Below, one piece after another: positions 1,620-17,901 of a stretch of DNA of 64,000 nucleotides (its first letter is position 1; the number at the start of each line of letters is the position of its first letter). The stretch lies in contig JAHPZA010000001.1 of assembly GCA_019058445.1 (NCBI GenBank), positions 141,439-205,438 on the forward strand, written 5' to 3'. The stretch is from Promethearchaeota archaeon. Its GTDB lineage: Archaea; Asgardarchaeota; Lokiarchaeia; Sigyniarchaeales; SOKP01. Under the pieces are notes generated by a model. It did not search any database. It worked only from the letters and a program-made list of their open reading frames with translations, and was not told the DNA's origin. A program made the position numbers and the translations under genes.

Positions 1620-3770
1620 ATGGAAACAAAAGATAATGGAAGGTTAAAAATGGTTTTTGTAGAACAAACGAGTGCACATAAAAAGAAAAGTAAATATCTA
1701 AAAAATTTATTACCTAGAGTGTTTAGAACGGAAGGGGATGTGGTTAAGTTTGATCCGTTAAAAATTGAAAATAGTATCATTAAAGAAACTGGTTTGGATA
1801 AAGAAAATGCTGATAGATTAACTGAAATCGTTGTGAGAAGGATCATATCATCAGGAATTCAATTTCTCTCAGGACCCCATATTCGAGAAATAGTTTGCTC
1901 TGTTCTTTCAGAAGAACACTATGAGGACCAGAGAAAGTTATATACTCGAATTGGAATGCCTTTAATGGATTATGAAGCTATTTTAGACCAAGGCATAAAT
2001 GAAAATGCTAATCAAGATATGAATCCTGAGAGTATCCATCACTGGGCTGCAAATCGAATCTCCGAAGAATATGCGCTTTTAAGGCTTTTAGATTCAGAAG
2101 AAGCTAAAGCTCATTTGTATGGTGATATCCATATCCATATGCTAAGATATTTCGATCTTCGTCCTTTCTGCCAGGAATGGGACCCTCGCATGATTCTCGA
2201 GCATGGTTTACCCCCTGTTGAAAGTTGGCCGCATTGTAGTAAATCGGCTCCTGCTGGAAGCTTGAGAGTGGCTGTAACTCATTTAGCAAAATGGTTAGGC
2301 ATAATACAAGGGGAATTTTCAGGAGGACAAGGTTATGATTATATTACAACGTTTTTAGCTCCTTATGCGAGAGGAATTTCTGACAGGGAAATAGAACAAT
2401 CAATGCAATGCTTAATTTTTGAAACTAACCAAATTTTTGCTGCAAGGGGTGGGCAAGTACCATTTACTTCAATATCCTGTACTCCAACAGTACCAGAAGG
2501 GTTACTTGATATTTCAGCAATAGGACCTCATGGAAAAATAGTTGGATCTTATGGAGATTATAAAGATGAATGCCTACAGCTATTTGATGCATTAACGGAT
2601 GTGTACATTAAAGGAGATCAAAATGGAAAACTTTTTGCTTTTCCAAAACATGAAATAAAAATTAAAAAAGAATGGATAAATGATTTCGAACCGTCTTATT
2701 TGAAATTGATGGAAGAAGTGGCAACTATGGGTACTCCTTATTTCCTTAATATGTGTCCTGACTGGATGCCTGATGAAATACATAGTCAATGTTGTAGAAA
2801 ATTTCTCAGTGGAAATGAAATCATTAGTAAATGTATCCTTGATCCCGAAAAAAGAAAAGATGCAAATGTTTGGGAAAATTACGTGACTATTGGCTCTCTT
2901 CAAAGTGTAAGCTTAAATCTACCTAGATATGCCTATTTATCTCGAAATGAAGATGATTATTTGGAAATATTAGATGAAAAAATGGAATTATCTGCTAGAA
3001 TTTTGATAAAAAAATGGAAGTTAATGGAAAAAAGATTACAATCAGGTCACCTCCCACTGTGCTGCGGAAAAATAAACGGAAAACCAATTTTTAATATAAA
3101 CGATCAAAACCTCTCTATAGGTTTTACAGGATTAAATGAAGCCGTTAAAAGTTTAACTGGAGAAGAACTCCACGAAAGTAAAGATGCGTATAATTTGGGC
3201 AAAAAAATATTGGAATTCATGGTCGCAAAATGCAATACAATGACAGAAAGAGATGGATATTCATATTCACTCTGGGAACAGCCCGCCGAGAGCAGTTCAG
3301 GACGCTTTGCTAAATTGGATTTGAAACATTTTCCTAAAAAAGCAATTCCTCAATCATCTGGTAAATCTGCTTATTACACAAATTCGGGTCATTTCAGATA
3401 TGATGCTGATATTCCACTATCAGAAAGAATAAAAAAGCAAGGAGATTATCATCCAATCGTGAGTGGGGGTGTTATTACTCATATTTTTCTAGGAGAACAA
3501 AAACCAGACATAAATGGATTGTGGGAGCTTACAAAAAATATTTGTCTTAACACAAATACGGCATATTTTGCATATTCTCCCGATTTTACATACTGTCCGC
3601 ATTGTCGAAAGATGTTTCGAGGGGGAAGCTTTACCTGTTCTCAGTGTGGATCTCAGGACGCAAAAGTTTATTCGCGTATTACCGGATATTATAGTGAAGT
3701 TAATAGATATAATGCTGGAAAGAGAGCAGAATGGGAAACCCGAAAACGACAAAATATAGTTCATATATAA
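1620..3770 (+). CDS. nrdD: Anaerobic ribonucleoside-triphosphate reductase (class III) with N-terminal ATP cone
   Basis: ATP cone, PAES motif, CxxC..CxxC zinc site, glycyl-radical loop SRITGYY. Confidence 0.97.
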   Translation: METKDNGRLKMVFVEQTSAHKKKSKYLKNLLPRVFRTEGDVVKFDPLKIENSIIKETGLDKENADRLTEIVVRRIISSGIQFLSGPHIREIVCSVLSEEHYEDQRKLYTRIGMPLMDYEAILDQGINENANQDMNPESIHHWAANRISEEYALLRLLDSEEAKAHLYGDIHIHMLRYFDLRPFCQEWDPRMILEHGLPPVESWPHCSKSAPAGSLRVAVTHLAKWLGIIQGEFSGGQGYDYITTFLAPYARGISDREIEQSMQCLIFETNQIFAARGGQVPFTSISCTPTVPEGLLDISAIGPHGKIVGSYGDYKDECLQLFDALTDVYIKGDQNGKLFAFPKHEIKIKKEWINDFEPSYLKLMEEVATMGTPYFLNMCPDWMPDEIHSQCCRKFLSGNEIISKCILDPEKRKDANVWENYVTIGSLQSVSLNLPRYAYLSRNEDDYLEILDEKMELSARILIKKWKLMEKRLQSGHLPLCCGKINGKPIFNINDQNLSIGFTGLNEAVKSLTGEELHESKDAYNLGKKILEFMVAKCNTMTERDGYSYSLWEQPAESSSGRFAKLDLKHFPKKAIPQSSGKSAYYTNSGHFRYDADIPLSERIKKQGDYHPIVSGGVITHIFLGEQKPDINGLWELTKNICLNTNTAYFAYSPDFTYCPHCRKMFRGGSFTCSQCGSQDAKVYSRITGYYSEVNRYNAGKRAEWETRKRQNIVHI

Positions 3771-4019
3771 ATAACAAAATTTTATGCACTCTATCAATTT
3801 AAAAATCATTATATTTGAAATATTTGCATCATTAGTGAGAGATTTACTCTAGTTATATAACTTGAATGAAGATATAAATCCGAAAAAATAATATCAAGCA
3901 AATAACGAAAGACATTTTGAGATATTCACTAATAAAATTAATGATGAATTTAGAAAATTATTTAAGAAACTAAGACCTATGAACATAGGACAAAAGATTA
4001 AAGATGAGTAGATTTTTCA

Positions 4020-7000
4020 ATGAAACAAACAGAAAGATCATATTTTTCTTATTCAACAAAATTAAAAATTGCTGCATATTGTAATAATACTTGCGCTTTT
4101 CCTTCATGTGGTAAAAAAGTTCTTAGTGGGAGGATTAAGGCAGAAGATCTCGAAAATGGATTTTCTAAAGGTGAATTTGCTCATATAGTTGGTGTATCTC
4201 CTCAAGGACCTAGGCGATCTCAAGATGTGTCTCTAGAGAGCATTAATGATGTTTCAAATGGGATACTACTATGTGCAGAACACCATGCATTAATAGATGC
4301 AAATCCTAATGATTATCCTATAGAAACCTTAAGAAAATGGAAAAGGAATATTGAAGATAATTATAAAAATCTTCTGTTTATCAGTGATTATGATTCATGG
4401 GATGTTGACATAAATAATTTAATTAAAACTTCTGAATTTATTCAATATTCCGAAGAATTAAATAAATTTTTAAATAGTTCTGAGAATCTAATTGTGCACG
4501 TAGACGGCGAAATAGGAGTCGGGAAAAAAACTTTTGTAAAATATTGCTTTTCTCAATTACCTAAAAATCTGCAGAACGAAGTTATTATAATACAATCTAA
4601 TGATTTTGATCTCTCAAATTTCTCATTGTTTAATAAAATGATTAAATCAAGATTCCTTATTTTGCTTGAGACTTCTCCAAATTATCTTAAAAAATTAGTT
4701 GATAGAATTAAACAAGTTAATCCAACTAGTTATAAAGTCATTTCGATTGGTTCGGGTGAATTAGTAACTAAAAAAATAAATGGAATTATAAAAAAATATA
4801 CTTTAAACCGTTTAGATTCGAAAAGTTCAAGGAAATTAATCAGCCAATTAAGCAAAATTATTTCTCAGAATAATATAAAATATATTTTGGATTTGACAAA
4901 AGGAAATCCAGGAATTATTGCATCATTGGTCAAATATAATGAAAGAAAATATGATTTCACAGATGATTCCATAATTTCTGAAATTTTCGAGAATTTCAAT
5001 GAAAGAATTAAAAAAATGGGGATAGAGTTAATTCTAGTTAAAAAAATTATATTAGGTTTCTCAATCTTCTCTGAATTAGGATGGTATAAAGGATTATATA
5101 AGACATTATTTGAGAAAGGAAAATGGAGTTATGAATTTGAAGAGATACCTAACAAATTTTCCAAGATAATAAATGTTGATCTAGACAAGATTGACATTAT
5201 TATTACAGAATTACTTGAACTAAAAGTTTTAGAAAGAAAAGGGAGATTTTTAACTTTATCTTTACCATGTTTATCAGGTCTTTTCATTCGTCAGACACAG
5301 GAGGTATTTCTCAAGTATTTTAAGCGAATTATGGATTTACAAGATCCACATTTATTACAAAAATTTTTAAAACGATTAAAACAGTTTGCTTATGAAGAAG
5401 TCCTAATTTCATCAATTGTTAAGGAAATTCTCGATACTGGGTTATTATCAACTATAGACTGCCTAAATATTAATTTTTTTTCTACAATCCTCTTAAATCT
5501 TGCACAGCTTAATAATAAACTAGTGGCTGACCATCTTGAATTATTATTCAAGCATAAAAATCCACTAGAATTAAAAGAAATTTTAATCAATCGAAGAAAC
5601 TTAATAACAGCTCTTGAGCATCTGATATGGTATCCAGAAACATTTAAGACGGGAATGGATATTTTAATTAAACTAAGCATAGGTGAAAATGAAGACTGGG
5701 CTAATAATGCAACAGGATTAATACCTGAAAAATTTAGAGTATATTTACCTGGAACGTCAGCAAGTTTAGATTTGAGATTGAATTATTTATCTGAGTTTAT
5801 TGCTAATTCAACTGAAGAGCATTTTTTTTTGATTCCAATGATTTTCAAATCTATTTTCTATCTAAATACTAGTTCTAGATTGATATACGCTGAGATACAA
5901 TCATTTAAGCCAATACCAAAAGAATTCGTACCAAATCCAAAAGAATTGTCAAAGTATTTAAATGAAACTTTTAAAATTTTTAAAAATCAATTTGAAAATG
6001 AAAAATTTGAAAAAGATGGATTAGAAATCATAAATAATAATTTGAAACTTTTTGTAGAACTAAACAAGTTTGAAGAAATTAAATCAATATGGAATAAAAT
6101 AATAAGTAAAGATAGAGATTTTAAAATCAGATTAATAAATTTTTTCGAATATCGATTCAAGAATGATACAATCTATCCAGATATTAAAGAGTATATAAAC
6201 AAATTAAAAGAAGATTTTTCCCTACTTGATTCAATTAAAGAGTTTTCTTGGAAAAGCCCATTAGATTTTAAAGAAGAAGATATGAAATCCAAATCTCTTG
6301 AAGTAAAAAAAGTATTATCTAGTTTAGAAAAGGAAGAAATTCAAGAGATTCTAGAATGGTTAATGAAAAATTCTGGTGATTTTGTCATACAAATTGGAAT
6401 TTTGTTATCATTGGACAAAGATTGGATTGATCAATATGAAGATGTATTAGAAAGCTTTCTAAAATTAAAGGAAAATAGGGAATTTGATTTCTTTCTTGCG
6501 GTCTCTTATAACATTAGAATTAAGGACCAAGAAAGGTGGAGATCTATATTAAAAAAAATTGAAGCAAATGAAGGACTTTCACATGATTACTTTAGATTGT
6601 TAAGAGCAACTCCAATTCTCGATGATTGGGTTGTAAATAAAATAGTTGATTTAGCTGAACATGATTTCCTAAATGAAAGTGATTTATATCAATTTTCATG
6701 TTTAGAAAATGTAATTGAATTGGATGAAAACTTGTTTAAAAAAATAATGAGAATCTATTATAATAGATTTCCTAATGTAATTTCTGTTAAGCCTCAACAA
6801 TGGAATGATAATTTATTCTTAATAAAACGATATATTGAAAAAAATCCCAATTTTATCAAAAGAAATGTTGAAGATCTATTAAAAATTCTTTTAAATTTTG
6901 AGTGTCATGAAGTTGAGATTGGTGATAAATTTTCAAGCCTTTGGTTAGAAATTATTCTTATAATTATTAAAGAATGTCCGGGAACAATTAAGGAAATAAG

Positions 7001-7571
7001 AAAAAAAATAATTAGTTTAATTCCTAGCAAATATTTACCAATGGATTTTGACAAAACAACTATTAACACTCTATTTATCAATTTTTATGAAATAGAAGCA
7101 GAAGATACCTGGGAAGATTTTAAAATTTTATTTAAATCCAAATCAATTGATTATGTAGAGTTTTATTTCAACCTCTTATTTCTAAAATTAGTGCCTATCA
7201 ATAAAATTTTAGAATTATGTGAGGAAAATGTAGAAAAAAATCCTTTAATTCTTGTTAAAATTGTAGGAGAGGATATCCAATCTCAAAAAGGTCAAGATCT
7301 TGTTCGTGAAATTTGGTATAACTACTCGAATATTAGCAATCTTTCTTTTGAAATATATTCTAATTATACTTCTGGTGTCAAAATATTCTCACCTGGTGAA
7401 AGCGCTAAAATTCAAGAATTTCAATTAAAAAGACTTGAGGAGTGGCTTGAAAAAGAAAAAAAAATGGAAAAAACTAGAGAAAAAATGACGATATTAATAA
7501 ATGAATTGAAAAGATTAATCTCGAGGGATGAAATACACGCAAAACAGAATGATGAAGAAACAAAAATTTAG
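4020..7571 (+). CDS. HNH endonuclease fused to a STAND-like P-loop NTPase and long helical C-terminus (Avs-like defence protein)
   Basis: N-terminal CAFPSC..AHIVGVSPQGPR..NGILLCAEHHALID (HNH); Walker A GEIGVGKKT; GNP motif; ~800 aa helical tail. Confidence 0.75.
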   Translation: MKQTERSYFSYSTKLKIAAYCNNTCAFPSCGKKVLSGRIKAEDLENGFSKGEFAHIVGVSPQGPRRSQDVSLESINDVSNGILLCAEHHALIDANPNDYPIETLRKWKRNIEDNYKNLLFISDYDSWDVDINNLIKTSEFIQYSEELNKFLNSSENLIVHVDGEIGVGKKTFVKYCFSQLPKNLQNEVIIIQSNDFDLSNFSLFNKMIKSRFLILLETSPNYLKKLVDRIKQVNPTSYKVISIGSGELVTKKINGIIKKYTLNRLDSKSSRKLISQLSKIISQNNIKYILDLTKGNPGIIASLVKYNERKYDFTDDSIISEIFENFNERIKKMGIELILVKKIILGFSIFSELGWYKGLYKTLFEKGKWSYEFEEIPNKFSKIINVDLDKIDIIITELLELKVLERKGRFLTLSLPCLSGLFIRQTQEVFLKYFKRIMDLQDPHLLQKFLKRLKQFAYEEVLISSIVKEILDTGLLSTIDCLNINFFSTILLNLAQLNNKLVADHLELLFKHKNPLELKEILINRRNLITALEHLIWYPETFKTGMDILIKLSIGENEDWANNATGLIPEKFRVYLPGTSASLDLRLNYLSEFIANSTEEHFFLIPMIFKSIFYLNTSSRLIYAEIQSFKPIPKEFVPNPKELSKYLNETFKIFKNQFENEKFEKDGLEIINNNLKLFVELNKFEEIKSIWNKIISKDRDFKIRLINFFEYRFKNDTIYPDIKEYINKLKEDFSLLDSIKEFSWKSPLDFKEEDMKSKSLEVKKVLSSLEKEEIQEILEWLMKNSGDFVIQIGILLSLDKDWIDQYEDVLESFLKLKENREFDFFLAVSYNIRIKDQERWRSILKKIEANEGLSHDYFRLLRATPILDDWVVNKIVDLAEHDFLNESDLYQFSCLENVIELDENLFKKIMRIYYNRFPNVISVKPQQWNDNLFLIKRYIEKNPNFIKRNVEDLLKILLNFECHEVEIGDKFSSLWLEIILIIIKECPGTIKEIRKKIISLIPSKYLPMDFDKTTINTLFINFYEIEAEDTWEDFKILFKSKSIDYVEFYFNLLFLKLVPINKILELCEENVEKNPLILVKIVGEDIQSQKGQDLVREIWYNYSNISNLSFEIYSNYTSGVKIFSPGESAKIQEFQLKRLEEWLEKEKKMEKTREKMTILINELKRLISRDEIHAKQNDEETKI

Positions 7572-8823
7572 CGAATTGATTCCAAAATTCGATAATTGTT
7601 ATATTCCTTTTAGATCAAACCTTGAAATTAAGATAGATCAAATTCATTTTAGAAAAAAAGGACAAGATGAATGGTCATATTTTTCTAAATTATTCAGTTA
7701 TGAAGATGATTATAATCATATAGTTGAAATTAATAACGAAATTGATGAAAATCTAATAATTATCTACTATAAATCACTTGATCCTATAAAGTTTTCGTCA
7801 GAATTTGTCCAACTTCGAGTTATTATAAATAATGAGATTTATAGATGTATGTGCTCAATAGAATGGATAAAAATTGAAGATGATTTACTTCCAAAGATCG
7901 TAATTAATTCAAATTTAGGATTTAAAAAGGAAAGAATTACCTGCCTATGTCTAAAATTAAACGACAATTGTTTGAAATTCCTTAAACAATTTAACCAATT
8001 AATTGAAACTCAAAATATTACAGATTTGACTGATATTCGTGGAATTAATATTAAAAATTATGATATCGCAATTGTAAATATCAAATTCTTAGATGATATA
8101 AATTTATACTTGAGATTTCTAAAGAATATTGGACAAATATACATCTCTGATGACATTGGAAAATTATCAGAAAATTGTCTCAATATCAACAAACACAATT
8201 CATCTTATTCCTTTCATTATCGTATATCTGAATTTTTAAAAATAAAATGTTTAAACATTGAGAAAAATGATAAAGTCGATTTTTGGGAACAAAATAAAGA
8301 TGAATCCGAGAGATTTTGGCAAAAATACTTACAAAAGCATACTGATATCTTTTCCTCTGCTCTAAACTATACTATGGAATTTATCTGTGATGAAGGATCT
8401 GTAAGAGGGCAAGATATATATGGAAAGGGAGAAAAAAGAATAGATTTTCTATATAAAGGAAATGATAATAATGCTATTCTAATCGAAATAAAAGGACCAA
8501 AAACTCAATTAATTATGAATATGGAATATCGTGAAGGAATATATCCTCCCACAACTGATTTATCAGCTTCAGTCCTTCAGGTAATGGATTATAAGAAAAT
8601 ACTAATCGAAAATTATAATGAAATTAAAAAAAGATGTGATTGTGATGGTTTAAAGACAGACATCATTAAATGTTATGTTATAATTGGAAACTTAGAAGAT
8701 TTAAAAGAGGAACAAGAAAAAAGTTTTTCTTATTTTAAAGAAGTCGTAAACCCATATGTGGAGATAATCACCTTTGATGATCTTTTTGATAAATATAAAA
8801 AAAGCTATTTAATGGTCATTTAA
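7528..8823 (+). CDS. Shedu-like (DUF4263) immune nuclease with variable N-terminal domain; true start probably a few codons downstream (MMKKQK)
   Basis: C-terminal SERFWQKYL..RIDFL..LIEIKGP..DLSASVLQVMDYK..IITFDDL pattern. Confidence 0.82.
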   Translation: MKYTQNRMMKKQKFSELIPKFDNCYIPFRSNLEIKIDQIHFRKKGQDEWSYFSKLFSYEDDYNHIVEINNEIDENLIIIYYKSLDPIKFSSEFVQLRVIINNEIYRCMCSIEWIKIEDDLLPKIVINSNLGFKKERITCLCLKLNDNCLKFLKQFNQLIETQNITDLTDIRGINIKNYDIAIVNIKFLDDINLYLRFLKNIGQIYISDDIGKLSENCLNINKHNSSYSFHYRISEFLKIKCLNIEKNDKVDFWEQNKDESERFWQKYLQKHTDIFSSALNYTMEFICDEGSVRGQDIYGKGEKRIDFLYKGNDNNAILIEIKGPKTQLIMNMEYREGIYPPTTDLSASVLQVMDYKKILIENYNEIKKRCDCDGLKTDIIKCYVIIGNLEDLKEEQEKSFSYFKEVVNPYVEIITFDDLFDKYKKSYLMVI

Positions 8824-8885
8824 TTACAAATTATCTTTTTGGATTATGGAAAATATATAAAAATGAGTTTGGAATACTTAAAAAT

Positions 8886-10784
8886 TTATTTATTGTCTTT
8901 TATGAAAGTTTGAAGATCTATAAAGAAATTGAAATTATCGCTTGTAATATTAGTTTTAAGTGTTTCTACTTCTTTATAAGTAACTGTCTCTGCTTCAGTA
9001 TTATTTCTTTTCTTACAAACAAATTTCCCATCTTCCTGTTCTACAAGAATTGGTTCCCTTGTTTGCTTAATAGCAACAATCAAAATGATTTTTTCTATAT
9101 CGAAATCATCTATCAATTTTATCTCTTTACATTTAATAAAATCCTTTTTTGGTTCTGTAAATTTCCTTAATACTTTCTTAATTTGTTTAATTTTTTCCTC
9201 TAATCCATCAATTCCGACAATCTTTTTTGGATCATCATCTGTAATACCAATAATTAATAAGCCACCATCATAATTGGCAAAACTTGTTACTTGATTGCAG
9301 AATTTAATTTTAGCCCTCTTTTTTTCTGATTTGCTGGATTTTTCCCAAAAGTCAAGTGTTTGCTTAAAGTCCCATAAATCATTTTCAATGCGGTTAGGTT
9401 CTATAGCTTTTTTTATAAAAAGAATTAAAGCTTCTTCATTATATAAAAAGGTTTGTTGCAGTCTATATTTGTTAATATCTAAATCTAATTCTTCATAAAT
9501 TTCTTCAAAATCTTCTTCAAGAATTTTGTTCACAATGGATTTAGTGTTTTCTTTTTGAATTAAATATACAGAGCATTCCTCTTCATTTTCGTATAAAAAT
9601 TCTCTAGAATGCGTAGTTATAAAAATCTGATTAGATTTTGATTCTTGAAGGAATTTATCCCTTAACTTAATTTCTAATCCAGGATGTAAATGAAGCCCAG
9701 GTTCTTCTATACATAGTATATTATCTTGCCCAATTTCCATGATATAAGCAATAAAGTGTGCTATGTTAAGTATACCAGCACCCATATTGTCCAAATTCAA
9801 TTCTATGTTTAAATCATTTTCTTTTAAAATTAATATAGTATAATCATTTTCGATCACTTCTTGCCTTAGTATATCAATTTCAGGAATAAATTCTAATAAT
9901 TGCTTATTAAGTTTTGAGTTCCAATCATGTTCATTGGTAACCAATTTCTTATATATTATAGTAACTAAATTACTTCCTACCGGATCCAGACTTAAGCGAG
10001 TGGCCCCTGAGGTCTCAGCCCTTGGATTAAATCTACGTTTATCTGGAATAATATGGATATTTTCAAAAAATTTAATTAATTCTTTAGCTATAAATGGAAT
10101 AGGGGGATAATTTTCAAGATTCAAATGTTCTTCTAAAATTTGTTTTATATATCGAATTCCACCAGTTCTTATATTTGCAAAATAATTTTTTAGAAATACT
10201 CTATCAATTGAAACATTTTGTTTTTGAATAGCTTTAGGATTATATACTGAGTTTTGAAAATTATCATTATCAAGTCTTTTAAAATGGAACAAATCTTGAT
10301 AGTTATTATCCATATGTAAAATTTGAATTCTTTCAATATATAAAGCCTTTCCAATATCGTACTTTTTCAAAAAAATTTTAATTTTATTGAAATATTCATT
10401 TGATTTAAGCCAGTCTAAAGCGACTTTTGTGTCATTCCAATTAAATTCTTGAAATTTTGGATCATTTTTCCTTGTATAATCAAAAACTCTATTTAAAAAA
10501 TTTCGAGTGATAAGTTCCAATATAATTTTATTTCTAAACTCTGATGTTAGGGAAAAAATTAGATTAAGTTCTAATGGTAGTGTTTCGTCTCCATCATAAT
10601 ATTGTTCTCTATTTACTTTTCTTTCTGAATAAGAATCTTGGAGTATCTTAAATATTTTAAATAAATTTGATTTACCTGAACTATTTTTTCCTATTATAAC
10701 ATTGTAATCTTTAAAATCCTCAAATTTAGCATCTTTATAACTCAAGAAATTTTTGATTTCTATTCCTGAAAGCTTAATATTCAA
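8886..10784 (-). CDS. AAA_15/OLD-type ABC ATPase fused to a C-terminal Schlafen/AlbA_2 domain
   Basis: IKNFLS..IIGKNSSGKS Walker A, IEEPGLHLHP, ITTHS; C-terminal WDFKQ..TSFANYDGGLLIIGI..IVGI. Confidence 0.85.
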   Translation of the reverse strand: MNIKLSGIEIKNFLSYKDAKFEDFKDYNVIIGKNSSGKSNLFKIFKILQDSYSERKVNREQYYDGDETLPLELNLIFSLTSEFRNKIILELITRNFLNRVFDYTRKNDPKFQEFNWNDTKVALDWLKSNEYFNKIKIFLKKYDIGKALYIERIQILHMDNNYQDLFHFKRLDNDNFQNSVYNPKAIQKQNVSIDRVFLKNYFANIRTGGIRYIKQILEEHLNLENYPPIPFIAKELIKFFENIHIIPDKRRFNPRAETSGATRLSLDPVGSNLVTIIYKKLVTNEHDWNSKLNKQLLEFIPEIDILRQEVIENDYTILILKENDLNIELNLDNMGAGILNIAHFIAYIMEIGQDNILCIEEPGLHLHPGLEIKLRDKFLQESKSNQIFITTHSREFLYENEEECSVYLIQKENTKSIVNKILEEDFEEIYEELDLDINKYRLQQTFLYNEEALILFIKKAIEPNRIENDLWDFKQTLDFWEKSSKSEKKRAKIKFCNQVTSFANYDGGLLIIGITDDDPKKIVGIDGLEEKIKQIKKVLRKFTEPKKDFIKCKEIKLIDDFDIEKIILIVAIKQTREPILVEQEDGKFVCKKRNNTEAETVTYKEVETLKTNITSDNFNFFIDLQTFIKDNK

Positions 10785-11210
10785 ATCTCCTTTCCCCCTT
10801 AATAATGATTTAAGACTCTTCTGATATTCTTTAGCAAAATATAATATTTATTCTCTTTGGTAAATTAGAAATTATAGAATAATAATTTAATAATATTAAT
10901 TAAAAAGTAAAAATAAAGAGAGTCTAATTATTTTTTACAATTCATTAAACACAATTTTACAAATTTTGAAGCAGATCTTCATTCTTTTAAATCTTAATAT
11001 AATTCTAAATTATTGAATTCAATATTTTCGTATATACTAGAACTATAATTTCAATTTTTATCAATACTCATGTATAGTAATCCTTAAGGTTAGTATTTAA
11101 TTATGAATATAAATATAAAGCTATCAAATAGTTATAGATTACTAGTATATATTTAAATTCACTTAATTACAAATAATTTTATATATTAATACATAAAAAA
11201 AGATTTTTTA

Positions 11211-12752
11211 ATGATAAAAATGAACGAGGCAAGCGTTATTGTACCAAAAAGTGAAATTAGTGACGATTTCTTAATTAAGAATTACTGTAAGCTCATTAAA
11301 AAAGGGGAGATTGAATTTCTAGAGAAAATGGATAGTTTTGACATATATGATAAGAATTATGAAGAATTAAAGGATGAGTCTAACTATATAAAAATTGATA
11401 CTAAGAATCTTGTTAATATTTTAAATGATCTCACTATAGAAGATAAAAAAGAAGAAGAAAAAGTAAAGATTCTGAAAAAGAAAAAAATAATATTTCAGAA
11501 ACTATGGCCGAATTTTGTAAGGAGTGCTATTAAATATCTAAGAATAAAAGATACTCGAGATAAAGGTACCTTTAAATTTGATTTTGGAGTCAACAATTTA
11601 ACAAAATATTTTGAAGAATTCTCAAAATTTGAAGAAATTCTTTATGGAATTGACGAATACTATCGAGATCATTCCCTACATGTTTTTAGAGTGTATCTTT
11701 TAGGAGTATATTTAGTAAGAAAATTTTTTAAAGATTATGATCAATTGAAGATTAAAAATAAACCTTCTATAATCGGTAAAATCTTTTCTGATGAAAAAGA
11801 AGCGATTTGGTGCGTTATAGCATTATGTCATGATTTAGGATATCCATTACAGAAATTAGATGAATTAAATAAAAAACTTGTTAAAATACTCGAATTTTTT
11901 GGTACTTCAAATTTTAATCCTTTAAGATTTAGCTTACCTCTTGAAGGAACAATCTTAGACAAATTTATTTTAAAATTAATTTCGTCAAGAATCAATGACA
12001 ACTTATTGATTCAACATCAACCTAAATTTTATGCAAAATACTCTAAGGCTTATGAAAAATTGAGCCATGGAATAATGTCTTGTATCTTATTAATGAAAAA
12101 TTTAGTATATTTTAAAGAAACAGATTATGAACCTGATTTCCAAAAAGGTTTTAAATATATTAAAGAGCCTTCTACAAATAGCAACGATTTTGATGAAAGA
12201 ACTTTAGAGGATGCAAGACAATATGTAATTAGAAGAGAAATACTACGATCAATTGCTTCCCATGATAACGAAGATATTTATCATATAGAAATGAATAATT
12301 TTCCCTTTTTATTGATAATGTGTGATGAAATCCAGGAATGGAGCCGACCTGCTTCAAAAATAAGACTACTATATGCCTTAGATGAAAAAAATAGAGAGAT
12401 AATTAATATCAATGCTTTTAATGAAAATATAATAGATATCTTAATAAATTTAAATTTTGATGAAAATGATTTATTAAATTATGTTGCAAAGAAATATATG
12501 AAATTTATTCGATTATTGAGAAGTGCTGTAGATTCAGATAAACGGAAATTTAATTTTATAATGTCGATACAAAATAGGGAAGGCATAAAATACCAGTTTA
12601 TTTATGAAAGTCCTAATGAATTCTATACTGATGAAGAAAAGAAAAAAATGGAAATCTCGTATGAAGAACCAAAATGTATAAAATTTATAAATGAAAAACC
12701 AATAGAAGATTTCTCATTAAGGAATATTATTGATTTAATAAATAAAAAATGA
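11211..12752 (+). CDS. HD-superfamily metal-dependent phosphohydrolase
   Basis: RDHSLHVFRVY, LCHDLGYP, SHG, SHD and CDEIQEW motifs. Confidence 0.8.
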   Translation: MIKMNEASVIVPKSEISDDFLIKNYCKLIKKGEIEFLEKMDSFDIYDKNYEELKDESNYIKIDTKNLVNILNDLTIEDKKEEEKVKILKKKKIIFQKLWPNFVRSAIKYLRIKDTRDKGTFKFDFGVNNLTKYFEEFSKFEEILYGIDEYYRDHSLHVFRVYLLGVYLVRKFFKDYDQLKIKNKPSIIGKIFSDEKEAIWCVIALCHDLGYPLQKLDELNKKLVKILEFFGTSNFNPLRFSLPLEGTILDKFILKLISSRINDNLLIQHQPKFYAKYSKAYEKLSHGIMSCILLMKNLVYFKETDYEPDFQKGFKYIKEPSTNSNDFDERTLEDARQYVIRREILRSIASHDNEDIYHIEMNNFPFLLIMCDEIQEWSRPASKIRLLYALDEKNREIININAFNENIIDILINLNFDENDLLNYVAKKYMKFIRLLRSAVDSDKRKFNFIMSIQNREGIKYQFIYESPNEFYTDEEKKKMEISYEEPKCIKFINEKPIEDFSLRNIIDLINKK

Positions 12753-13312
12753 CAGTAAATGATTATACTGATATAAAAACTATTGAAATTAAGAAAAGGG
12801 ATTTAATATTTTCTAAAAAAACTCGTTTGTGGTGTAGATTACCATATCCAAATCATCCTTATGGATGTCCAAATTATAATAAAAATCCATTATGTCCCCC
12901 TTTTGCCGATTACATGGATTATATTAAAAAAAAATATTCTCATTTTTATTTAATTTATGCTATTTTTAAATTAAAAAGTCAAAGAGAAAGAATGCTTTCA
13001 ATCCATCCAAATTGGTCAATAAAAAAAGCTAATTGTTTGTTATATTGGCAGGGTTCTGTAAAAAAAGTCTTAAAAAACTATATTCAAAGGATTATACTAA
13101 AAAATAAAAATAGAAAAACCTATATTTTAGCATGTGGTTCTGGATTTAAATTTAGTAGTATTCATCAAAATAAAGTCTATAGTATGGAAGCTGTAGGAAT
13201 AAATGTATTAAAAACTTTAGATAATGTGGGAATAGAATACGAACTTAAACCTAAGAATAAAGTATTACTAGTTACACTATTATGTTCTCAAGAGTACCTT
13301 TTATTTTTTTAA
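12749..13312 (+). CDS. DUF2284-like Cys-rich metal-binding protein
   Basis: C..GCPNYNKNPLCPP and SMEAVGINV motifs; ATGA overlap with the HD gene. Confidence 0.72.
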   Translation: MTVNDYTDIKTIEIKKRDLIFSKKTRLWCRLPYPNHPYGCPNYNKNPLCPPFADYMDYIKKKYSHFYLIYAIFKLKSQRERMLSIHPNWSIKKANCLLYWQGSVKKVLKNYIQRIILKNKNRKTYILACGSGFKFSSIHQNKVYSMEAVGINVLKTLDNVGIEYELKPKNKVLLVTLLCSQEYLLFF

Positions 13313-14333
13313 ATTCTTCAGGTATATAATCTTTAGTTAAATCTATTTGTTTAATGTTATTGCATACTAATTTTTGAATTGGACAAATTTCATTACATAT
13401 TTTTCTTTCTAAACAATATCCACATTTTAGATTTTCTTTAAAATGCTGTAATTCTATATCTAATAACCTATTAGAAATAACTTTTCGAAGCGAATTTTTA
13501 TCATTCAGTTTCACGAAGCAATTTGAAATATTTTTAAAAGCAGTACAAGGAAATAATTTAAGATCAGATGTAATCATAAATTTATTTTTTCCAGCTTCAC
13601 ACTTAAAACAAGAATTACTAAGGTTAGAAAATGCCGATCCTATTTCGACTTTAGAGGAAGGATAATTTAATTTCACATTATTTAAAATGATAGCTAGATC
13701 TTCTTTGCTAAATACTAATTTCTCATGATTTTTTAAAGCCCTACCATGTAATATAAGGCGAAGTATCTTGACATGTTTAATATTTAGCTCATTTATTAAA
13801 TATTCTATTGTATCTTCAAGGTATTTAATATTTAAACAATTAGGGATGATATGAACTTCAGTATTGATATTTAAATCTATACATGATTTAATTGAAGTTA
13901 TAGTATTTTCAAAACCAAATGTGGTTTTTGTTAATTTAGCAAAATTTTCTTTATCAATGGTTTGAAAATTATATCTTATTGTCAAATTAGGATGATTTTT
14001 ATATCTCATTAAGATATTTTTAGGAATAGGCAAATACTCCCTATCTTTATAAATACATCCACAAGAGTAAATTTCCAGCAAAAAATCACAATTTAGAATA
14101 TAATCAATAAATTCTATAATGTTTGGATGAAGAAATGGTTCTCCTCCTGATAATTGGATAATATCAAGACCAAGTTTTTTAGCATCTTGAATAAGTTCGA
14201 TAAATTTCTTTTTTTCTATATATTTCTTCTTATAGATGGTTGAATCACTAGAACAAAAAATACAATTAAAAGGACATTTGTTAGTTATTTCAATCAACAA
14301 TTCTTTTTTCTTTTTCAATTTTGCTTTCCTCAA
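13272..14333 (-). CDS. Radical SAM protein with SPASM/twitch C-terminus
   Basis: CPFNCIFC, SGGEP, CEAG..PC..CGYC..C..CP. Confidence 0.9.
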   Translation of the reverse strand: MRKAKLKKKKELLIEITNKCPFNCIFCSSDSTIYKKKYIEKKKFIELIQDAKKLGLDIIQLSGGEPFLHPNIIEFIDYILNCDFLLEIYSCGCIYKDREYLPIPKNILMRYKNHPNLTIRYNFQTIDKENFAKLTKTTFGFENTITSIKSCIDLNINTEVHIIPNCLNIKYLEDTIEYLINELNIKHVKILRLILHGRALKNHEKLVFSKEDLAIILNNVKLNYPSSKVEIGSAFSNLSNSCFKCEAGKNKFMITSDLKLFPCTAFKNISNCFVKLNDKNSLRKVISNRLLDIELQHFKENLKCGYCLERKICNEICPIQKLVCNNIKQIDLTKDYIPEEFKKIKGTLENIIV

Positions 14334-14689
14334 CGATTCAATTCTAATATTGACTTAGATACTTTTAATCTTTTTCTATATAAAAAAATAAAAATATCTT
14401 GGTTTTTTCTCATCATCTCCTAAACTTGTTTAACTCTATATTATGCTTAAATATTAGAAATATTTTAAATCTTTTAGCTTTTCTCATTTAAAATATATTT
14501 CTTAAAAATATTTAAAATTATTGGCAATGAAATTATTCGAAATTTAATAAAATCTCATTTAATTAATAAGATTTTGATTTCAATTTAACTTATAATAAAA
14601 AAATAGATTTAACCGACAAATTTATATTATTCTCTTTTCTTAAGAATTGAGAATATTTAAAAATGCTTGTTTATAATTTAATTATGTAG

Positions 14690-15016
14690 ATGATTGCCCT
14701 TGAAAAAGAGATAATTATTATAAATTTTTTAAATGAGAAAGCTATAAATTTATTATATATTCTAGCTAAAAAATATCCAATAACTAGCGTTAATTTGAGG
14801 AATAAGGTTATTAAAAATGAAATAATGTCTATAAGTTCTTACTATAGGTATCTGGATTTCCTTTTGAAACATAAACTGATAAAAAAAGAAAAATATAGAA
14901 AGAAGACAGGGGGTTATATTTATAATATAAGTAATTTTGGTAAGTATTTCCTAGAATTAATTTTAAAATCAAACATTCCTTTTTATAATAATCTAAATCA
15001 TGATCTAAACTCATAA
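14690..15016 (+). CDS. Winged-helix DNA-binding protein (probable regulator)
   Basis: SISSYYRYLDFLLKHKLI..YNISNFG wHTH pattern; divergent from the radical SAM gene. Confidence 0.65.
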   Translation: MIALEKEIIIINFLNEKAINLLYILAKKYPITSVNLRNKVIKNEIMSISSYYRYLDFLLKHKLIKKEKYRKKTGGYIYNISNFGKYFLELILKSNIPFYNNLNHDLNS

Positions 15017-15061
15017 ACTTATAGAATAGCGGATTTTTATTTAAAAAATTTAAAGTGTTTA

Positions 15062-15502
15062 ATTCCTCAATCTTCTGATAATTAGGCTTACTATACAAAT
15101 TCAAGTTATTTCAGATATGATGCTGAGATTTTACATTCAGAAAGGATTAAAAAACAAGGAGATTACCATTCTATTATAAGTGGTTGAGTAATTATTCATA
15201 AAAGCTTAGGCGAGCAAAAATCAGACATACAAGGATTATGAGAATTAACTAAAAATATTTGCCATAATAATAACACAGCATATTATGCCTACACTACAGA
15301 TTTCACTTATCACCCTTATTGAAGAAGAATCTTTCGAGGGGACAGTTTTACCTTTTAAGAATGTGGTGCTCAAGATGCCAGAATTTACTCCAGAATTACT
15401 GGCTATTATAATGAAGTAAATAAATATAATGAGGGAAATAGAGCAGGATGGGAAGCCTGTAAAAGAGATTATATCAACGTATTACAGAGATTAAAAAAAT
15501 AA
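15062..15502 (+). pseudogene. nrdD: Degenerate copy of the nrdD 3' end (aligns to ~3345-3750)
   Basis: Translates in one frame to IPQSS..YYTNSSYFRYDA..YSRITGYYNEV.., with five internal stops (TAG, TGA x3, TAA). Confidence 0.93.
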
Positions 15503-15521
15503 GAATCATATATTTTCTTCT

Positions 15522-17726
15522 CTAATTTTTAATATAGATTTGTCCTATTCCTGATGTAAAGATTTCATAGAATGGAACTGTTAAATCATAAATATTATTA
15601 TTTTCATTATTAAATTCTATAGATTTTACTTTAGTGAAAGTATTTTTAGCAAATTTCATCCATAACTTCTCAACAACAGGAGTATTATATTTCTTTTTTA
15701 TAAGAAAACTCAATGTATCTAATAATTTTCCTTCAGATATATTCATTGTACTATTCTTTTGAGCACATCTCGCTGCGATATATGGAATTTTTCCTTTTTC
15801 AGATAACATTCTAAGAGATATAGCATAATTCTCTTTTAATTCTACATTCATTTTTTTCATCCATGGATTTAAATCGATGACTGGTTCTATATCCCTCCCA
15901 AAATGTCCAATTTCTGGAATAGATGGAATAAACTTCCTTAATATAGATAGATTTCTTTTTCCTTTTATTTCTAAATGATAAGCATTATACCAACTAGGAT
16001 GTTCTACATTATCAAATTCTCGTTTCCTAATATAAGATGAAATCCCTAAGCGTTTTAATAAAAAACTCAAACCAAAAACTAATTTGCGTGAAGATGTGTA
16101 AAAACTCACTAAAACATCTCTTCGTGGTGAGCCTTCACGTGTATATACTACTTCAGATCCGTCTCCTTCTAAATAAGCAGCGATAAAACCTTTCACACAT
16201 TCAATGGGAGCATTATATAGAAATGAAGGAATTTCCTTAAACGGTGCTTTTTCAAGTTTTAATCCTAATCCCGTTGAAAACATAGATTTAATTAGAATGG
16301 AATTACTATTGACGCTATATACAGTGTTATAATCCGCTTTATCATGTGTAGCAATATAAGGTGTATATCCAAAATTCCTTTCTATAAGAAATGCTACTTT
16401 TTCCATCTCAGTTTTATTATTTCCACAAGTGAACGTAATATGTTTCATAGAACCTTCGGAGCAGTAATGCCCTAAGATATATCCAACCTCGAAATTTTTC
16501 TCAACAAATCTAAAGGCTTTTGTTAATGCATTTTTAACATACTCAATGCCTTTCTCCACAATAATTTCTCCACAATTACTAAAGTCTAAGGGGGAATCGT
16601 CTTCATTAACATCGATGACTCGAGGCATTAGAATTGGAGTTCCTTCTTTAACGTTTTCTGCTGTAATTTGGATTATATTAAGATTTTCATCAACAGAAAG
16701 TAGCTTATGTTGTTTTGATAACGATAATATCCCATGCTTCAATGTTAAATTTAATGAAAAATCTCTATACTTTTTTTTAATTCCTTCAATGGGGATTTTT
16801 TTTAATTCAAAATTCTCGTCCAATCCAAAGATATAAGAGTTTTTATAATTTTCTATTTCTTTAATTTCTATTAGATTATATGAATTTGTATTTAAATCGA
16901 ACAATAGAACGAGCTCGTTTTGCTGCATTTTAGAAAAAAGATTCTCTTCAATGGGGGTTCGTTCCTTCTCATACACATCATTAATTCGCTGAAGTTTATC
17001 TTCTTGGATAATTTCTTCATCAAAGAATACTTGATTATTTATTTCTTTTTCTTTAATATTCACACTCGTTTCTAATCCAAAAAATTGGATTAAATCTTTT
17101 CGAATTACTTTTTCGAGGTTAAATAATCCCTCCTCAGTATCAATTTGACTCATTATTTTAAATATTATTTCTATTATCCAACACAAGTAGACAAAAAAAG
17201 CCTTGCGGTATTTCTTGTTTTTTTTAATTTTCCTTTGGTATATTTTTAGTTCTGAGAGGAATCCACTGTAGTTAGCATTTTCGAGATATTTCAAAATATT
17301 TAATATTGGTTTTTTAGTTATAATTGGAGTCAAATGAGCTTCAATTCTTTTAATTAGTTCAATGGTTAGTTCCATTTGTGAAATCGGCGTGTTTACTTCT
17401 CTCTCAAATTTTTTTAATTTAACATAACTCATTCGAGCAATAAATAGAAGATAAGTATCCTTAAATCGTTGTGAAAATTCTGGATCGTAAATAATAAGCT
17501 CTAAGGCACTATTCAACTTATCATTATTATTTTTTTTATAAATTAATTGAACTTTATCAATAGTTTCAATCGAATAATTCTTAAAGTCAATTTTTTTGCC
17601 ACATTCTGAGCAGAATATGAATTTTAAATCAATATTAGCAATATTTAAAATTGTATTCACTGTAATTAACATGCCACATTCTGGACAGTAAATATGTGTT
17701 TGTTTAAGTTTGTCTTTGCTTTTCAT
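15522..17726 (-). CDS. Zinc-ribbon protein fused to an intein-derived Hint/LAGLIDADG module with no C-extein
   Basis: CPECG..CSECG; block B SKQH; LAGLIDADG motifs YILGHYCSEGS and GFIAAYLEGDGS; IYDLTV..IYIKN followed directly by stop. Confidence 0.85.
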   Translation of the reverse strand: MKSKDKLKQTHIYCPECGMLITVNTILNIANIDLKFIFCSECGKKIDFKNYSIETIDKVQLIYKKNNNDKLNSALELIIYDPEFSQRFKDTYLLFIARMSYVKLKKFEREVNTPISQMELTIELIKRIEAHLTPIITKKPILNILKYLENANYSGFLSELKIYQRKIKKNKKYRKAFFVYLCWIIEIIFKIMSQIDTEEGLFNLEKVIRKDLIQFFGLETSVNIKEKEINNQVFFDEEIIQEDKLQRINDVYEKERTPIEENLFSKMQQNELVLLFDLNTNSYNLIEIKEIENYKNSYIFGLDENFELKKIPIEGIKKKYRDFSLNLTLKHGILSLSKQHKLLSVDENLNIIQITAENVKEGTPILMPRVIDVNEDDSPLDFSNCGEIIVEKGIEYVKNALTKAFRFVEKNFEVGYILGHYCSEGSMKHITFTCGNNKTEMEKVAFLIERNFGYTPYIATHDKADYNTVYSVNSNSILIKSMFSTGLGLKLEKAPFKEIPSFLYNAPIECVKGFIAAYLEGDGSEVVYTREGSPRRDVLVSFYTSSRKLVFGLSFLLKRLGISSYIRKREFDNVEHPSWYNAYHLEIKGKRNLSILRKFIPSIPEIGHFGRDIEPVIDLNPWMKKMNVELKENYAISLRMLSEKGKIPYIAARCAQKNSTMNISEGKLLDTLSFLIKKKYNTPVVEKLWMKFAKNTFTKVKSIEFNNENNNIYDLTVPFYEIFTSGIGQIYIKN

Positions 17727-17901
17727 ACTAATGAAATAAATTACTTATATTTAAAACAAAAAAAAGTTTTAAAATTGATTTCAATATGAGATAAAGCACG
17801 TTGGTATTAATAAAAAATTCAGAGAGTCATCAAATTTTTAGAGTTATATTTGCTCCCTAATATAAAGATTTAATTGAATCTGTAACACTTTTGATGATAT
17901 A

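What the first reader, a model, noticed from the sequence alone, without database searches (positions are those of the whole stretch)
3345..15502. Defence island bracketed by two copies of the nrdD 3' end, with no integrase
Seen: 15062-15502 is a colinear, frameshift-free copy of the last ~140 codons of nrdD, including the glycyl-radical loop. It has five nonsense codons, many synonymous differences and a different C-terminal tail. About 11 kb of defence-type genes lie between the copies, and nrdG follows ~2.4 kb later. Inference: the synonymous divergence suggests a once-functional, diverged allele rather than a fresh target-site duplication. An incoming cassette may have carried its own nrdD end, recombined into nrdD and displaced the resident end. 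The nrdD-nrdG gap would then be a homology-driven defence hotspot.
Basis: partly seen in the sequence, partly recalled or inferred. Interest (0 to 1): 0.8.

Follow-up and report, generated by a model that had tools for sequence, protein, structure and literature searches.

The report
Archaeal nrdD 3'-end replacement hotspot
In this Asgard (Promethearchaeia/Loki) archaeon and its relatives, new DNA repeatedly enters just behind the ribonucleotide reductase gene nrdD by bringing its own copy of the gene's end and pushing the old end downstream; this resembles the yeast "WHO" homing elements, but here the incoming DNA is an 11 kb block of defence genes and there is no integrase.

Summary
Window 15061-15502 is a gap-free, 74% identical copy of the last ~140 codons of nrdD, with 5 internal stops.

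The copy is not a fresh duplicate. Synonymous difference to the live end is saturated (pS 0.64, pN 0.15). Its own decay is flat across codon positions (15/19/21 private changes).

The closest relative with this nrdD (G003) has nrdD and nrdG ~50 bp apart, so window 3786-17907 is an insertion.

Across the family the site is polymorphic:
- 53 of 80 species loci are empty and 23 are occupied, with unrelated cargo.
- At least 8 genomes carry one or two extra nrdD 3' fragments (162-450 nt) stacked downstream.
- In close genome pairs the nrdD 5' part differs by 2-5% and the 3' end by 12-30%. Several independent breakpoints fall at codons 553-556, just upstream of the longest fragments.

No integrase is present. 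The only mobility-type gene is the extein-less, intein-derived LAGLIDADG endonuclease at 15522-17726. It or its relic abuts an nrdD 3' end in all 5 genomes that have it.

Best reading (0.55): a prokaryotic counterpart of yeast WHO elements, with defence cargo hitch-hiking. Cleavage of nrdD is inferred, not shown.

This scan noted the WHO parallel earlier for the endonuclease gene on this same DNA.

The parts
1620..3770 (+). Full-length, intact nrdD (class III ribonucleotide reductase, 716 aa)
   Evidence: PF13597 6.9e-143 and TIGR02487 over cut-off. Orthologs at 80-91% aa identity in relatives, in conserved upstream synteny.
3278..3285 (+). Position in nrdD (codons 553-556, end of the conserved WEQP motif) that matches the recurrent recombination breakpoint seen in relatives. 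Candidate break site; inferred.
   Evidence: In close pairs, dense differences start at gene nt 1659-1666 in at least 3 independent events. The longest fragment (G074) begins ~15-20 nt downstream.
3344..3770 (+). Live copy of the repeated nrdD 3' end (last ~141 codons, glycyl-radical and zinc-ribbon part)
   Evidence: Repeat family D1 and alignment. Groups with the G002 allele.
3786..17907 (.). Whole 14.1 kb insertion relative to the empty site of the closest relative
   Evidence: blastn of the G003 junction: homology ends at 3785 and resumes at 17908. G003 and G007 have nrdD, ~40-55 bp, then nrdG. GC is 0.21-0.27 in the island against 0.30-0.36 in the flanks.
4020..7571 (+). Cargo: 1183-aa protein with N-terminal HNH_2 nuclease domain; overlaps the next gene
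   Evidence: PF13391 1.5e-6. PADLOC hits to SAVED-HNH effectors and SduA N-terminus over residues 4-140.
7528..8823 (+). Cargo: Shedu-type nuclease (SduA C-terminal domain)
   Evidence: PF14082 1.6e-23 and PADLOC SduA 1.1e-39. A copy 86% identical in nt lies on a metagenome contig with different neighbours.
8886..10784 (-). Cargo: ABC/AAA_15 ATPase fused to a Schlafen/AlbA_2 domain
   Evidence: PF13175 4.4e-24 and PF04326 3.2e-13. PADLOC HEC-01A/AriA/GajA-like ATPase hits.
11211..12752 (+). Cargo: 513-aa protein with an H...HD motif (HD phosphohydrolase-like)
   Evidence: No family hit. Motif read from the translation. A 26% identical homolog lies downstream of nrdD in G087.
12749..13312 (+). 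Cargo: DUF2284 metal-binding protein
   Evidence: PF10050 6.9e-14
13272..14333 (-). Cargo: radical SAM/SPASM-type enzyme
   Evidence: PF04055 6.6e-16. Sub-threshold NCBIfam SPASM maturase hits and a weak PADLOC pVip hit.
14690..15016 (+). Cargo: small winged-helix-like protein, last gene before the dead copy
   Evidence: Weak PF14277 and ScpB hits only
15061..15502 (+). Dead, displaced nrdD 3' end (5 internal stops, no indel, own tail)
   Evidence: Groups with the G008 allele (UFBoot 100) inside the genus clade.
15522..17726 (-). Free-standing, non-splicing, intein-derived LAGLIDADG endonuclease with an N-terminal zinc ribbon, convergent with the dead nrdD end. Not between the repeats, but part of the system.
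   Evidence: PF14528 9e-13 and PF14890 8.9e-11. No N-terminal Cys and no C-extein; both LAGLIDADG acidic motifs are conserved in 4 orthologs. Best PDB match is a V-ATPase intein. It or its relic abuts an nrdD 3' end in all 5 genomes that have it.
17902..18648 (+). nrdG activase, the right-hand flank of the insertion
   Evidence: TIGR02495 8.3e-45, over cut-off. Directly follows nrdD in G003 and G007.

Best explanation
The 3' end of nrdD is a recurrent entry site that works like the yeast WHO homing elements.

Proposed mechanism:
- A double-strand break is made in the 3' third of a 'sensitive' nrdD allele, near codons 553-556.
- The break is repaired by homologous recombination with incoming DNA that carries its own diverged nrdD 3' end plus whatever lies behind it.
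- The incoming end becomes the functional end of the gene.
- The previous end is left downstream as a promoterless fragment that decays.
- Such a fragment can later serve as the right-hand homology arm when the cassette moves on.

The window holds a two-layer stack:
- Older layer: the now-dead end (15061-15502) with the LAGLIDADG endonuclease gene convergent behind it (15522-17726).
- Newer layer: the live end (3344-3770) with 11.3 kb of mostly defence-type cargo (3771-15061).

Shown:
- insertion relative to an empty site;
- the dead end is a diverged, once-functional allele;
- recurrence and stacking in relatives;
- replacement of the 3' end in near-identical genomes;
- clustered breakpoints;
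- no integrase;
- the endonuclease is tied to this site and kept intact.

Inferred:
- that the endonuclease cuts nrdD;
- that the defence cassette, which has no endonuclease of its own, entered by the same route;
- the order of the two layers in this genome.
For: Empty site in G003/G007 and exact insertion limits.

The dead end was a functional allele:
- pS 0.64 vs pN 0.15.
- Private changes of the dead copy are 15/19/21 at codon positions 1/2/3, against 0-3/0-3/13-22 for live alleles.
- The decay is even along its length.

Recurrence and stacking:
- Extra nrdD 3' fragments lie downstream of nrdD in G074 (two), G087 (two), G080, G008, G058, G024 and G117.
- Distal fragments are shorter.
- Cargo is unrelated between genomes.
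- 53 loci are empty and 23 occupied among 80 species.

3' end replacement:
- G058/G019/G084 differ at 6-7% of third positions in the 5' part but at 22-26% in the 3' end.
- G058's fragment groups with the G084 live end (UFBoot 100) and starts where the divergence jump starts.
- Further pairs show 2-5% against 12-30%, and control pairs show no jump.
- Dense differences start at gene nt 1659-1666 in at least 3 independent events. Some are short tracts in empty loci, as expected for break repair.

Endonuclease:
- It is extein-less, and its catalytic motifs are conserved.
- Orthologs occur in only 5 of 135 family genomes, always against an nrdD 3' end.
- L171, which carries a relic, has a replaced 3' end relative to the empty L117.
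- The 2.2 kb ORF is intact although the adjoining 441 bp collected 5 stops.

WHO elements show the same anatomy (PMC7282813; 10.64898/2026.08.13.744650):
- ~400 bp host-gene 3' fragments;
- 85% identity between alleles downstream of the cut;
- a cut just upstream of the fragment 5' ends;
- the newest element next to the gene.
Against: - The newest layer in the window has no endonuclease gene or relic. Most occupied sites in relatives (G074, G080, G008) also lack one, so a cis-encoded nuclease is not required for entry.
- The WHO model predicts a third fragment between the endonuclease gene and nrdG. None is detectable.
- Fragment 5' boundaries vary from 162 to 450 nt, and two breakpoints lie elsewhere (codons 633 and 661).
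- Part of the jump after WEQP falls in a poorly constrained linker.
- In the window the live end is the allele concordant with the 5' part (closest to G002), and the dead end is the discordant one (closest to G008). The direction therefore rests on analogy.
- No cleavage assay exists.
Confidence: 0.55

Rival explanations
1. Nuclease-independent homology trap. Cassettes of the form 'nrdD 3' end, cargo, old nrdD fragment' spread between cells by ordinary RadA-mediated double crossover. The nrdD body serves as the left arm and the fragment as the right arm. The LAGLIDADG gene is just one more selfish passenger of the site.
For: Most occupied sites, and the newest layer in the window, carry no endonuclease. 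Both arms come from one conserved gene, which explains why insertion does not depend on the downstream gene (nrdG in this genus, another gene in other genera). Alleles of fragments are shared between genomes (G074 fragment 1 with the G087 live end, UFBoot 98).
Against: Random crossovers should not start at the same ~8 nt in independent events, nor leave short tracts that begin there in empty loci. It does not explain how the first duplication arose. It also does not explain why the endonuclease gene is found only at this site and is kept intact.
Confidence: 0.25
2. Site-specific integration by a tyrosine or serine recombinase that targets the nrdD 3' end, as e14 and phage 21 do at icd or ICESt1/3 at fda. 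The integrase would have been lost or would act in trans, leaving integrase-less remnants in tandem (CIME-like accretion).
For: Elements that integrate into a gene's 3' end carry a replacement end and leave the displaced end at the far junction, with the crossover at the 5' edge of the repeat. Tandem accretion gives arrays (established knowledge of these systems). The genome has two tyrosine recombinases elsewhere.
Against: - No recombinase was found in the window's island or in any annotated island of relatives.
- Repeat lengths differ from 162 to 450 nt.
- There is no shared identical core. The longest identical run between the two copies is ~19 nt, inside a conserved motif.
- Some cassettes are a single 1 kb gene (G080).
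- Conversion tracts occur without any insertion.
Confidence: 0.12
3. Local tandem duplication of the nrdD end in this genome, followed by insertion of genes between the copies and decay of one copy. Alternatively, an assembly artefact that joins two strains.
For: Two co-oriented copies lie 11.7 kb apart.
Against: - Third-position difference is 0.46, while in-situ decay of ~13% predicts ~0.2.
- The dead copy groups with another species' allele.
- The same architecture recurs on single contigs of other assemblies (G074, G080, G087).
- The copies are 26% different, so they cannot be collapsed or mis-joined as repeats.
- The window lies on a contig longer than 200 kb, in a 10-contig assembly.
Confidence: 0.03

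Closest known systems
WHO homing elements at FBA1 in Torulaspora/Lachancea yeasts (Coughlan et al. 2020, PMC7282813; 2026 preprint 10.64898/2026.08.13.744650)
   Same: - An intein-derived LAGLIDADG endonuclease without exteins, fused to a zinc-binding module, sits just downstream of a conserved housekeeping gene.
- Each arrival replaces the gene's 3' end and leaves the old end as a ~400 bp fragment, with or without stops.
- The alleles are strongly diverged downstream of a fixed point that lies just upstream of the fragment 5' ends.
- Clusters are built with the newest element next to the gene.
- Fragments are carried to other loci (compare WHO10 with G117:C66).
   Different: - The host is an archaeon and the target is nrdD.
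- The zinc ribbon is N-terminal and present only in the window's copy.
- The endonuclease gene is convergent with the host gene.
- Transfer must be between cells, not meiotic.
- Large non-nuclease cargo (defence genes and others) travels in the cassettes, and most cassettes have no endonuclease.
- Cleavage is not demonstrated.
- Neither paper reports prokaryotic counterparts or cargo.
Free-standing homing endonucleases of T-even phages (Seg/Mob proteins; 'intronless homing')
   Same: A stand-alone nuclease gene sits next to a conserved gene (often nrd genes). It cuts nuclease-less alleles and spreads with co-conversion of flanking sequence (own knowledge; phage nrd homing context in PMC1865063).
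   Different: Phage cases leave no duplicated 3' fragment, build no stacks and carry no kilobase cargo. Those enzymes are GIY-YIG or HNH, not intein-derived.
C-terminal displacement arrays of rhs/cdiA polymorphic toxin genes
   Same: Incoming DNA carries a piece of the conserved gene plus new downstream genes. It recombines into the resident gene, and the displaced ends accumulate as orphan fragments downstream (own knowledge).
   Different: There the variable part is the gene's own tip and its immunity gene. Here the gene product is conserved and the variable part is unrelated cargo behind it.
Integrase-mediated insertion into the 3' end of protein genes (e14/phage 21 at icd; ICESt1/3 and CIMEs at fda)
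   Same: The element carries a substitute 3' end with many synonymous differences. A pseudo-3' end lies at the far junction. Tandem accretion occurs (own knowledge).
   Different: No recombinase, no common core and variable repeat length.

Membership tests
WHO-type homing element | Intein-like LAGLIDADG endonuclease with no exteins and no splicing residues | tested here: met
   Hint and LAGLIDADG_3 domains. The protein ends at the terminal Asn of the intein fold with nothing after it. There is no Cys/Ser at the Hint start. SEG and GDG acidic motifs are conserved in 4 orthologs. The PDB match is to a V-ATPase intein.
WHO-type homing element | Fusion to a zinc-finger type DNA-binding module | tested here: inconclusive
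   The window's copy has an N-terminal CPECG...CSECG zinc ribbon plus a helical domain. A paralog in the same genome shares this module at 49% identity but carries HNH_3 domains instead. Orthologs in G019, G058 and G087 have other or no N-terminal regions.
WHO-type homing element | Sits immediately downstream of one conserved host gene, with patchy distribution among strains and species | tested here: met
   Orthologs (>50% identity) or relics occur in the window, G019, G058, G087 and G139/L171 only, out of 135 family genomes. In the four cases where the junction is assembled it abuts an nrdD 3' end. In G087 its 3' end lies at a contig start, and its other side adjoins a fragment.
WHO-type homing element | Each integration replaces the host gene's 3' end and leaves the old end as a downstream fragment; repeated events build clusters | tested here: met
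   Window. Stacks in G074 and G087, and single fragments in G080, G008 and G058. Replaced 3' ends in near-identical genomes.
WHO-type homing element | The endonuclease cleaves sensitive alleles of the host gene, and the allele linked to it is resistant | not testable with these tools
   Only indirect evidence: breakpoints cluster at codons 553-556, ~15-65 nt upstream of the long fragments' 5' ends.
Integrase-borne integrative element targeting a gene 3' end | Tyrosine or serine recombinase encoded in the element | tested here: not met
   None among the 8 island ORFs or the annotated islands of relatives in Pfam, NCBIfam, PADLOC or PHROGs. The genome's only two PF00589 genes are on other contigs.
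Integrase-borne integrative element targeting a gene 3' end | Identical core sequence at both junctions, with the same crossover point for all members | tested here: not met
   The copies are 74% identical with no long identical block. Fragment starts differ by up to ~290 nt between genomes.
Shedu defence system (cargo) | SduA protein with the DUF4263/PD-(D/E)xK C-terminal nuclease domain | tested here: met
   PF14082 1.6e-23, over cut-off; PADLOC SduA 1.1e-39. Anti-virus activity was not tested.

The most novel reading that the evidence does not exclude
Asgard archaea possess a true WHO-type homing system. A splicing-dead intein nuclease cuts nrdD at a fixed site. The resulting repair events both replace the end of this essential gene and import kilobases of cargo. 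A homing element, not an integrase or transposase, would therefore be the engine that builds and exchanges a defence island across species and genera.
Probability: 0.4. Interest if true: 0.85.

Novelty: new variant of a known kind. Interest (0 to 1): 0.8.

Why it matters
How defence islands assemble at chromosomal hotspots that lack integrases is an open question. This locus offers a concrete, testable route. The two homology arms both come from one essential gene, so a cassette can enter any relative that has nrdD, whatever lies downstream.

A site-specific nuclease may supply the break. If so, WHO-type homing, described so far only in a few yeasts, would also exist in archaea, and it could carry cargo.

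There is also a practical point. Stacked pseudo-3' ends of a housekeeping gene are an easily searchable signature for finding more such hotspots. The diverged repeats explain contig breaks just behind nrdD in several assemblies (G002, G008, G087).

Tried and rejected
- A genome-contig scan with the endonuclease found nothing.
- The single metagenome scan, with SduA, returned one 4.7 kb contig without nrdD context.
- I looked for an endonuclease relic inside the island and for a third nrdD fragment before nrdG. Neither was found.
tblastn found no similarity (E<=1) to the inteins in the five intein-bearing nrdD loci I held. The best PDB and NCBIfam matches are V-ATPase subunit A inteins. The claim is not confirmed.
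- I tested whether the dead copy is a chimera of an old and a young part. Decay is even: 12/13/15/15 private changes per quarter.
- I tried to resolve which end is resident in the window from distances and trees. This was inconclusive, because species of the genus are near saturation at third positions.
- The HD-motif protein (11211-12752) recurs near nrdD in G087, so I considered it as a hidden recombinase. I rejected this: it is an HD-type hydrolase, and HD proteins are common cargo here.
- The paralog locus on contig 6 is flanked by two full-length M28 peptidase paralogs at 42% identity. That is not a 3'-end replacement.
Full report
**1. The observation**

The window encodes an intact nrdD at 1620-3770. 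It is 716 aa long and matches PF13597 and TIGR02487 over their full length.

Window 15061-15474 aligns to 3344-3757 without a single gap at 74% identity. In the nrdD frame the second copy has five internal stop codons. It keeps the glycyl-radical motif, has lost three of the four zinc-site cysteines, and ends in a different tail at about 15502.

Eight intact ORFs lie between the copies:
- an HNH-domain 1183-aa protein overlapping a Shedu SduA gene;
- an ABC-type ATPase fused to a Schlafen/AlbA_2 domain;
- an HD-motif protein, DUF2284, a radical SAM/SPASM enzyme and a small wHTH protein.

None has an integrase, transposase or recombinase domain in Pfam, NCBIfam, PADLOC or PHROGs.

nrdG starts at 17902. 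The 2.4 kb between the dead copy and nrdG is a 734-aa gene on the minus strand with Hint and LAGLIDADG domains.

The genome is a Promethearchaeia (Lokiarchaeia-type Asgard) MAG, judging by the record titles of its relatives.

**2. It is an insertion, and the site is polymorphic**

G003 is the closest relative holding this nrdD (91% aa identity). It has the same upstream genes, then nrdD, a spacer of about 50 bp, nrdG and the same downstream genes. G007 is the same.

Homology between the G003 junction and the window ends at 3785 and resumes at 17908. The insertion is therefore 14.1 kb and includes the dead copy and the endonuclease gene. The island is more AT-rich than its flanks.

In other genera nrdD is followed directly by the homolog of window ORF 18750-19067. 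Of 80 species-level loci, 53 are in this empty state and 23 are occupied by something else. Cargo is unrelated from genome to genome and is not only defence:
- SUKH/DUF6891;
- DUF285;
- an ICMT-like membrane protein;
- a ferredoxin;
- HD proteins;
- a HerA-like ATPase;
- a STAND NTPase.

**3. The dead copy was a functional, diverged allele**

| Comparison | Codon position 1 | Position 2 | Position 3 |
|---|---|---|---|
| Live vs dead | 0.18 | 0.145 | 0.457 |
| Live ends of different species of the genus | 0.04-0.11 | 0.02-0.05 | 0.37-0.45 |

Nei-Gojobori gives pS 0.643 and pN 0.150 for live vs dead.

Sites where the dead copy differs from all four live alleles of the genus number 15, 19 and 21 at positions 1, 2 and 3. 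This flat profile is about 13% neutral decay. Live alleles show 0-3, 0-3 and 13-22. The decay is even along the copy.

An in-situ duplicate that decayed by 13% would differ at roughly 0.2 of third positions, not 0.46. In a tree of 3' ends, the dead copy lies inside the genus clade and groups with the G008 allele (UFBoot 100). The live end groups with G002.

**4. The same thing has happened many times in relatives**

A search with the last 141 residues over 135 family genomes found extra nrdD 3' fragments:
- G074, one contig: nrdD, 2.2 kb, a 450-nt fragment with an open frame, 3.6 kb, a 171-nt fragment, 2.4 kb, then the usual downstream genes.
- G087: endonuclease gene, a 448-nt fragment with 3 stops, 2.2 kb, a 162-nt fragment, then the downstream genes.
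- G080: nrdD, one 213-aa gene, a 194-nt fragment.
- G008, G058 and G024: single fragments of 300, 263 and about 240 nt.
- G117: a 216-nt fragment at another locus, in front of a 2025-aa STAND NTPase.

Distal fragments are the shorter ones.

In G074 the live end is the phylogenetically discordant allele. Third-position difference to its nearest relatives is 0.46-0.50 in the 3' end, against 0.28-0.32 in the 5' part. The fragments lie in the clade of its relatives.

G058, G019 and G084 differ at 6-7% of third positions in the 5' part but at 22-26% in the 3' end. The jump between G058 and G084 begins where G058's fragment begins. That fragment is the G084-type allele: 92% identity, UFBoot 100. This is direct evidence that an incoming end displaced the resident one.

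**5. Breakpoints cluster**

Among 73 full-length genes, 15 pairs differ by less than 6% in the 5' part. Eight of those pairs differ two- to nine-fold more in the last 450 nt (11-30%), and control pairs show no jump.

Dense differences begin at gene nt 1659-1666 (codons 553-556, window 3278-3285) in at least three independent events (L146; L144; L184 vs L141). This is right after the conserved WEQP motif. Other events start at codons 525, 633 and 661.

In some empty loci the divergent tract lasts only 100-250 nt from that point, as expected for repair of a break by gene conversion. The longest fragment (G074) starts 15-20 nt downstream of this point, and the window's repeat starts about 60 nt downstream.

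Caveat: the first codons after WEQP are a weakly constrained linker. However, the elevated divergence continues through conserved sequence.

**6. The endonuclease**

The 734-aa protein has an N-terminal zinc ribbon and a helical region, then a Hint-LAGLIDADG module.
- That module lacks the N-terminal nucleophile.
- It ends at its terminal Asn with no extein.
- Four orthologs share these features and both acidic LAGLIDADG motifs.
- The nearest solved structures are V-ATPase inteins.

Orthologs or relics occur in only 5 of 135 genomes. Each lies against an nrdD 3' end: convergent with the live end in G019, G058 and G139/L171, convergent with the dead end in the window, and next to a fragment in G087. 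L171 carries a relic and has a replaced 3' end relative to the empty L117.

The ORF is intact although the adjacent 441 bp picked up five stops, so it is under selection.

The N-terminal module recurs at 49% identity in a paralog on contig 6, fused there to HNH_3 domains.

**7. Comparison with what is known**

The anatomy matches the WHO elements of Torulaspora and Lachancea (preprint). WHO elements show:
- extein-less intein nucleases fused to a zinc finger, downstream of FBA1;
- replacement of the FBA1 3' end at every integration;
- ~400 bp fragments with or without stops;
- alleles only 85% identical downstream of the cut;
- a cut just upstream of the fragment ends;
- the newest element next to the gene.

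Those papers describe no prokaryotic counterpart and no cargo.

This locus differs in several ways:
- the host and the target gene;
- the position of the zinc module;
- the convergent orientation;
- kilobases of cargo;
- many cassettes without a nuclease, including the window's newest layer.

Integrase-type insertion into gene 3' ends (icd, fda) gives similar pseudo-ends. It fails here on the absence of a recombinase and of a common core.

**8. Reading of the window**

The dead end abuts the endonuclease gene as live ends do elsewhere. The most economical history is therefore as follows. An nrdD whose end was the now-dead, G008-like allele had the nuclease gene behind it. Later a cassette carrying the present end plus the 11.3 kb cargo arrived and displaced that end.

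The stack could equally have been built in a donor and transferred whole, using nrdD and nrdG as arms.

Unexplained points:
- what cut or recombined the nuclease-linked allele to admit a nuclease-less cassette;
- the missing third fragment;
- the lack of any net indel in nine fragments (notebook).

**9. Verdict**

The hotspot belongs to the nrdD end and probably depends on a site-specific break.

The kind is known from yeast. The archaeal setting and the cargo are new with respect to the papers searched.

The scan had already noted the WHO parallel for the nuclease gene on this DNA.

Noticed in passing
L104:8630-13293 (G000 contig 6, 923630-928293): A 707-aa paralog shares the endonuclease's N-terminal zinc-ribbon and helical module (49% identity) but carries HNH_3 nuclease domains. 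It sits between two full-length M28 peptidase paralogs that are 42% identical. This may be another homing-type locus with a swapped nuclease module.
   Followed up: partly
G000 contig 3, 120459-122258 (L002/L004), and the same gene in G001, G003, G006, G007, G009, G019: A second, nrdD-like paralog (about 60% identity to nrdD in its N-terminal half and 43% in its C-terminal half) has one in-frame TAA/TAG between residues ~392 and ~420 in many genomes. It may be a conserved split gene or recoding.
   Followed up: no
L097:8860-9146 and 2587-8661 (G117 contig 66): A 216-nt nrdD 3' fragment lies far from nrdD. It is 90% identical to that genome's own nrdD end, with changes equal at all codon positions. 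It sits directly in front of a 2025-aa STAND/NACHT-like NTPase. G117's own nrdD site is empty. This resembles WHO10 insertions that carry an FBA1 fragment to new loci.
   Followed up: partly
L038:12744-17640 and L100:2635-8116: In G019 and G058 the endonuclease gene overlaps by 4 nt an upstream 926-941-aa gene with weak AAA/helicase P-loop hits. The two genes are 90% conserved as a pair between the two genomes, so the nuclease may work with an ATPase there.
   Followed up: no
L049 (G014), L094:510-4079 (G080), and G111, G147 and others: nrdD itself carries one or two inteins in its N-terminal half in about ten family genomes (ORFs of 1186-1687 aa). These inteins show no tblastn similarity to the free-standing endonuclease.
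   Followed up: partly
window 15061-15502 and fragments in L045, L093-L097: None of nine nrdD fragments has a net insertion or deletion, even those at ~60% aa identity. This is unusual for decaying DNA.
   Followed up: no
L105 (metagenome contig Ga0114923_10018505): An SduA gene 86% identical in nt to window 7764-8810 is followed by DNA unrelated to the window. The Shedu gene therefore moves independently of the rest of the island.
   Followed up: partly
L007 (G002), L008/L045 (G008), L095/L099 (G087): Several assemblies break within ~650 nt downstream of nrdD, or exactly at the endonuclease gene's end. This is consistent with repeated nrdD ends confusing short-read assembly.
   Followed up: no
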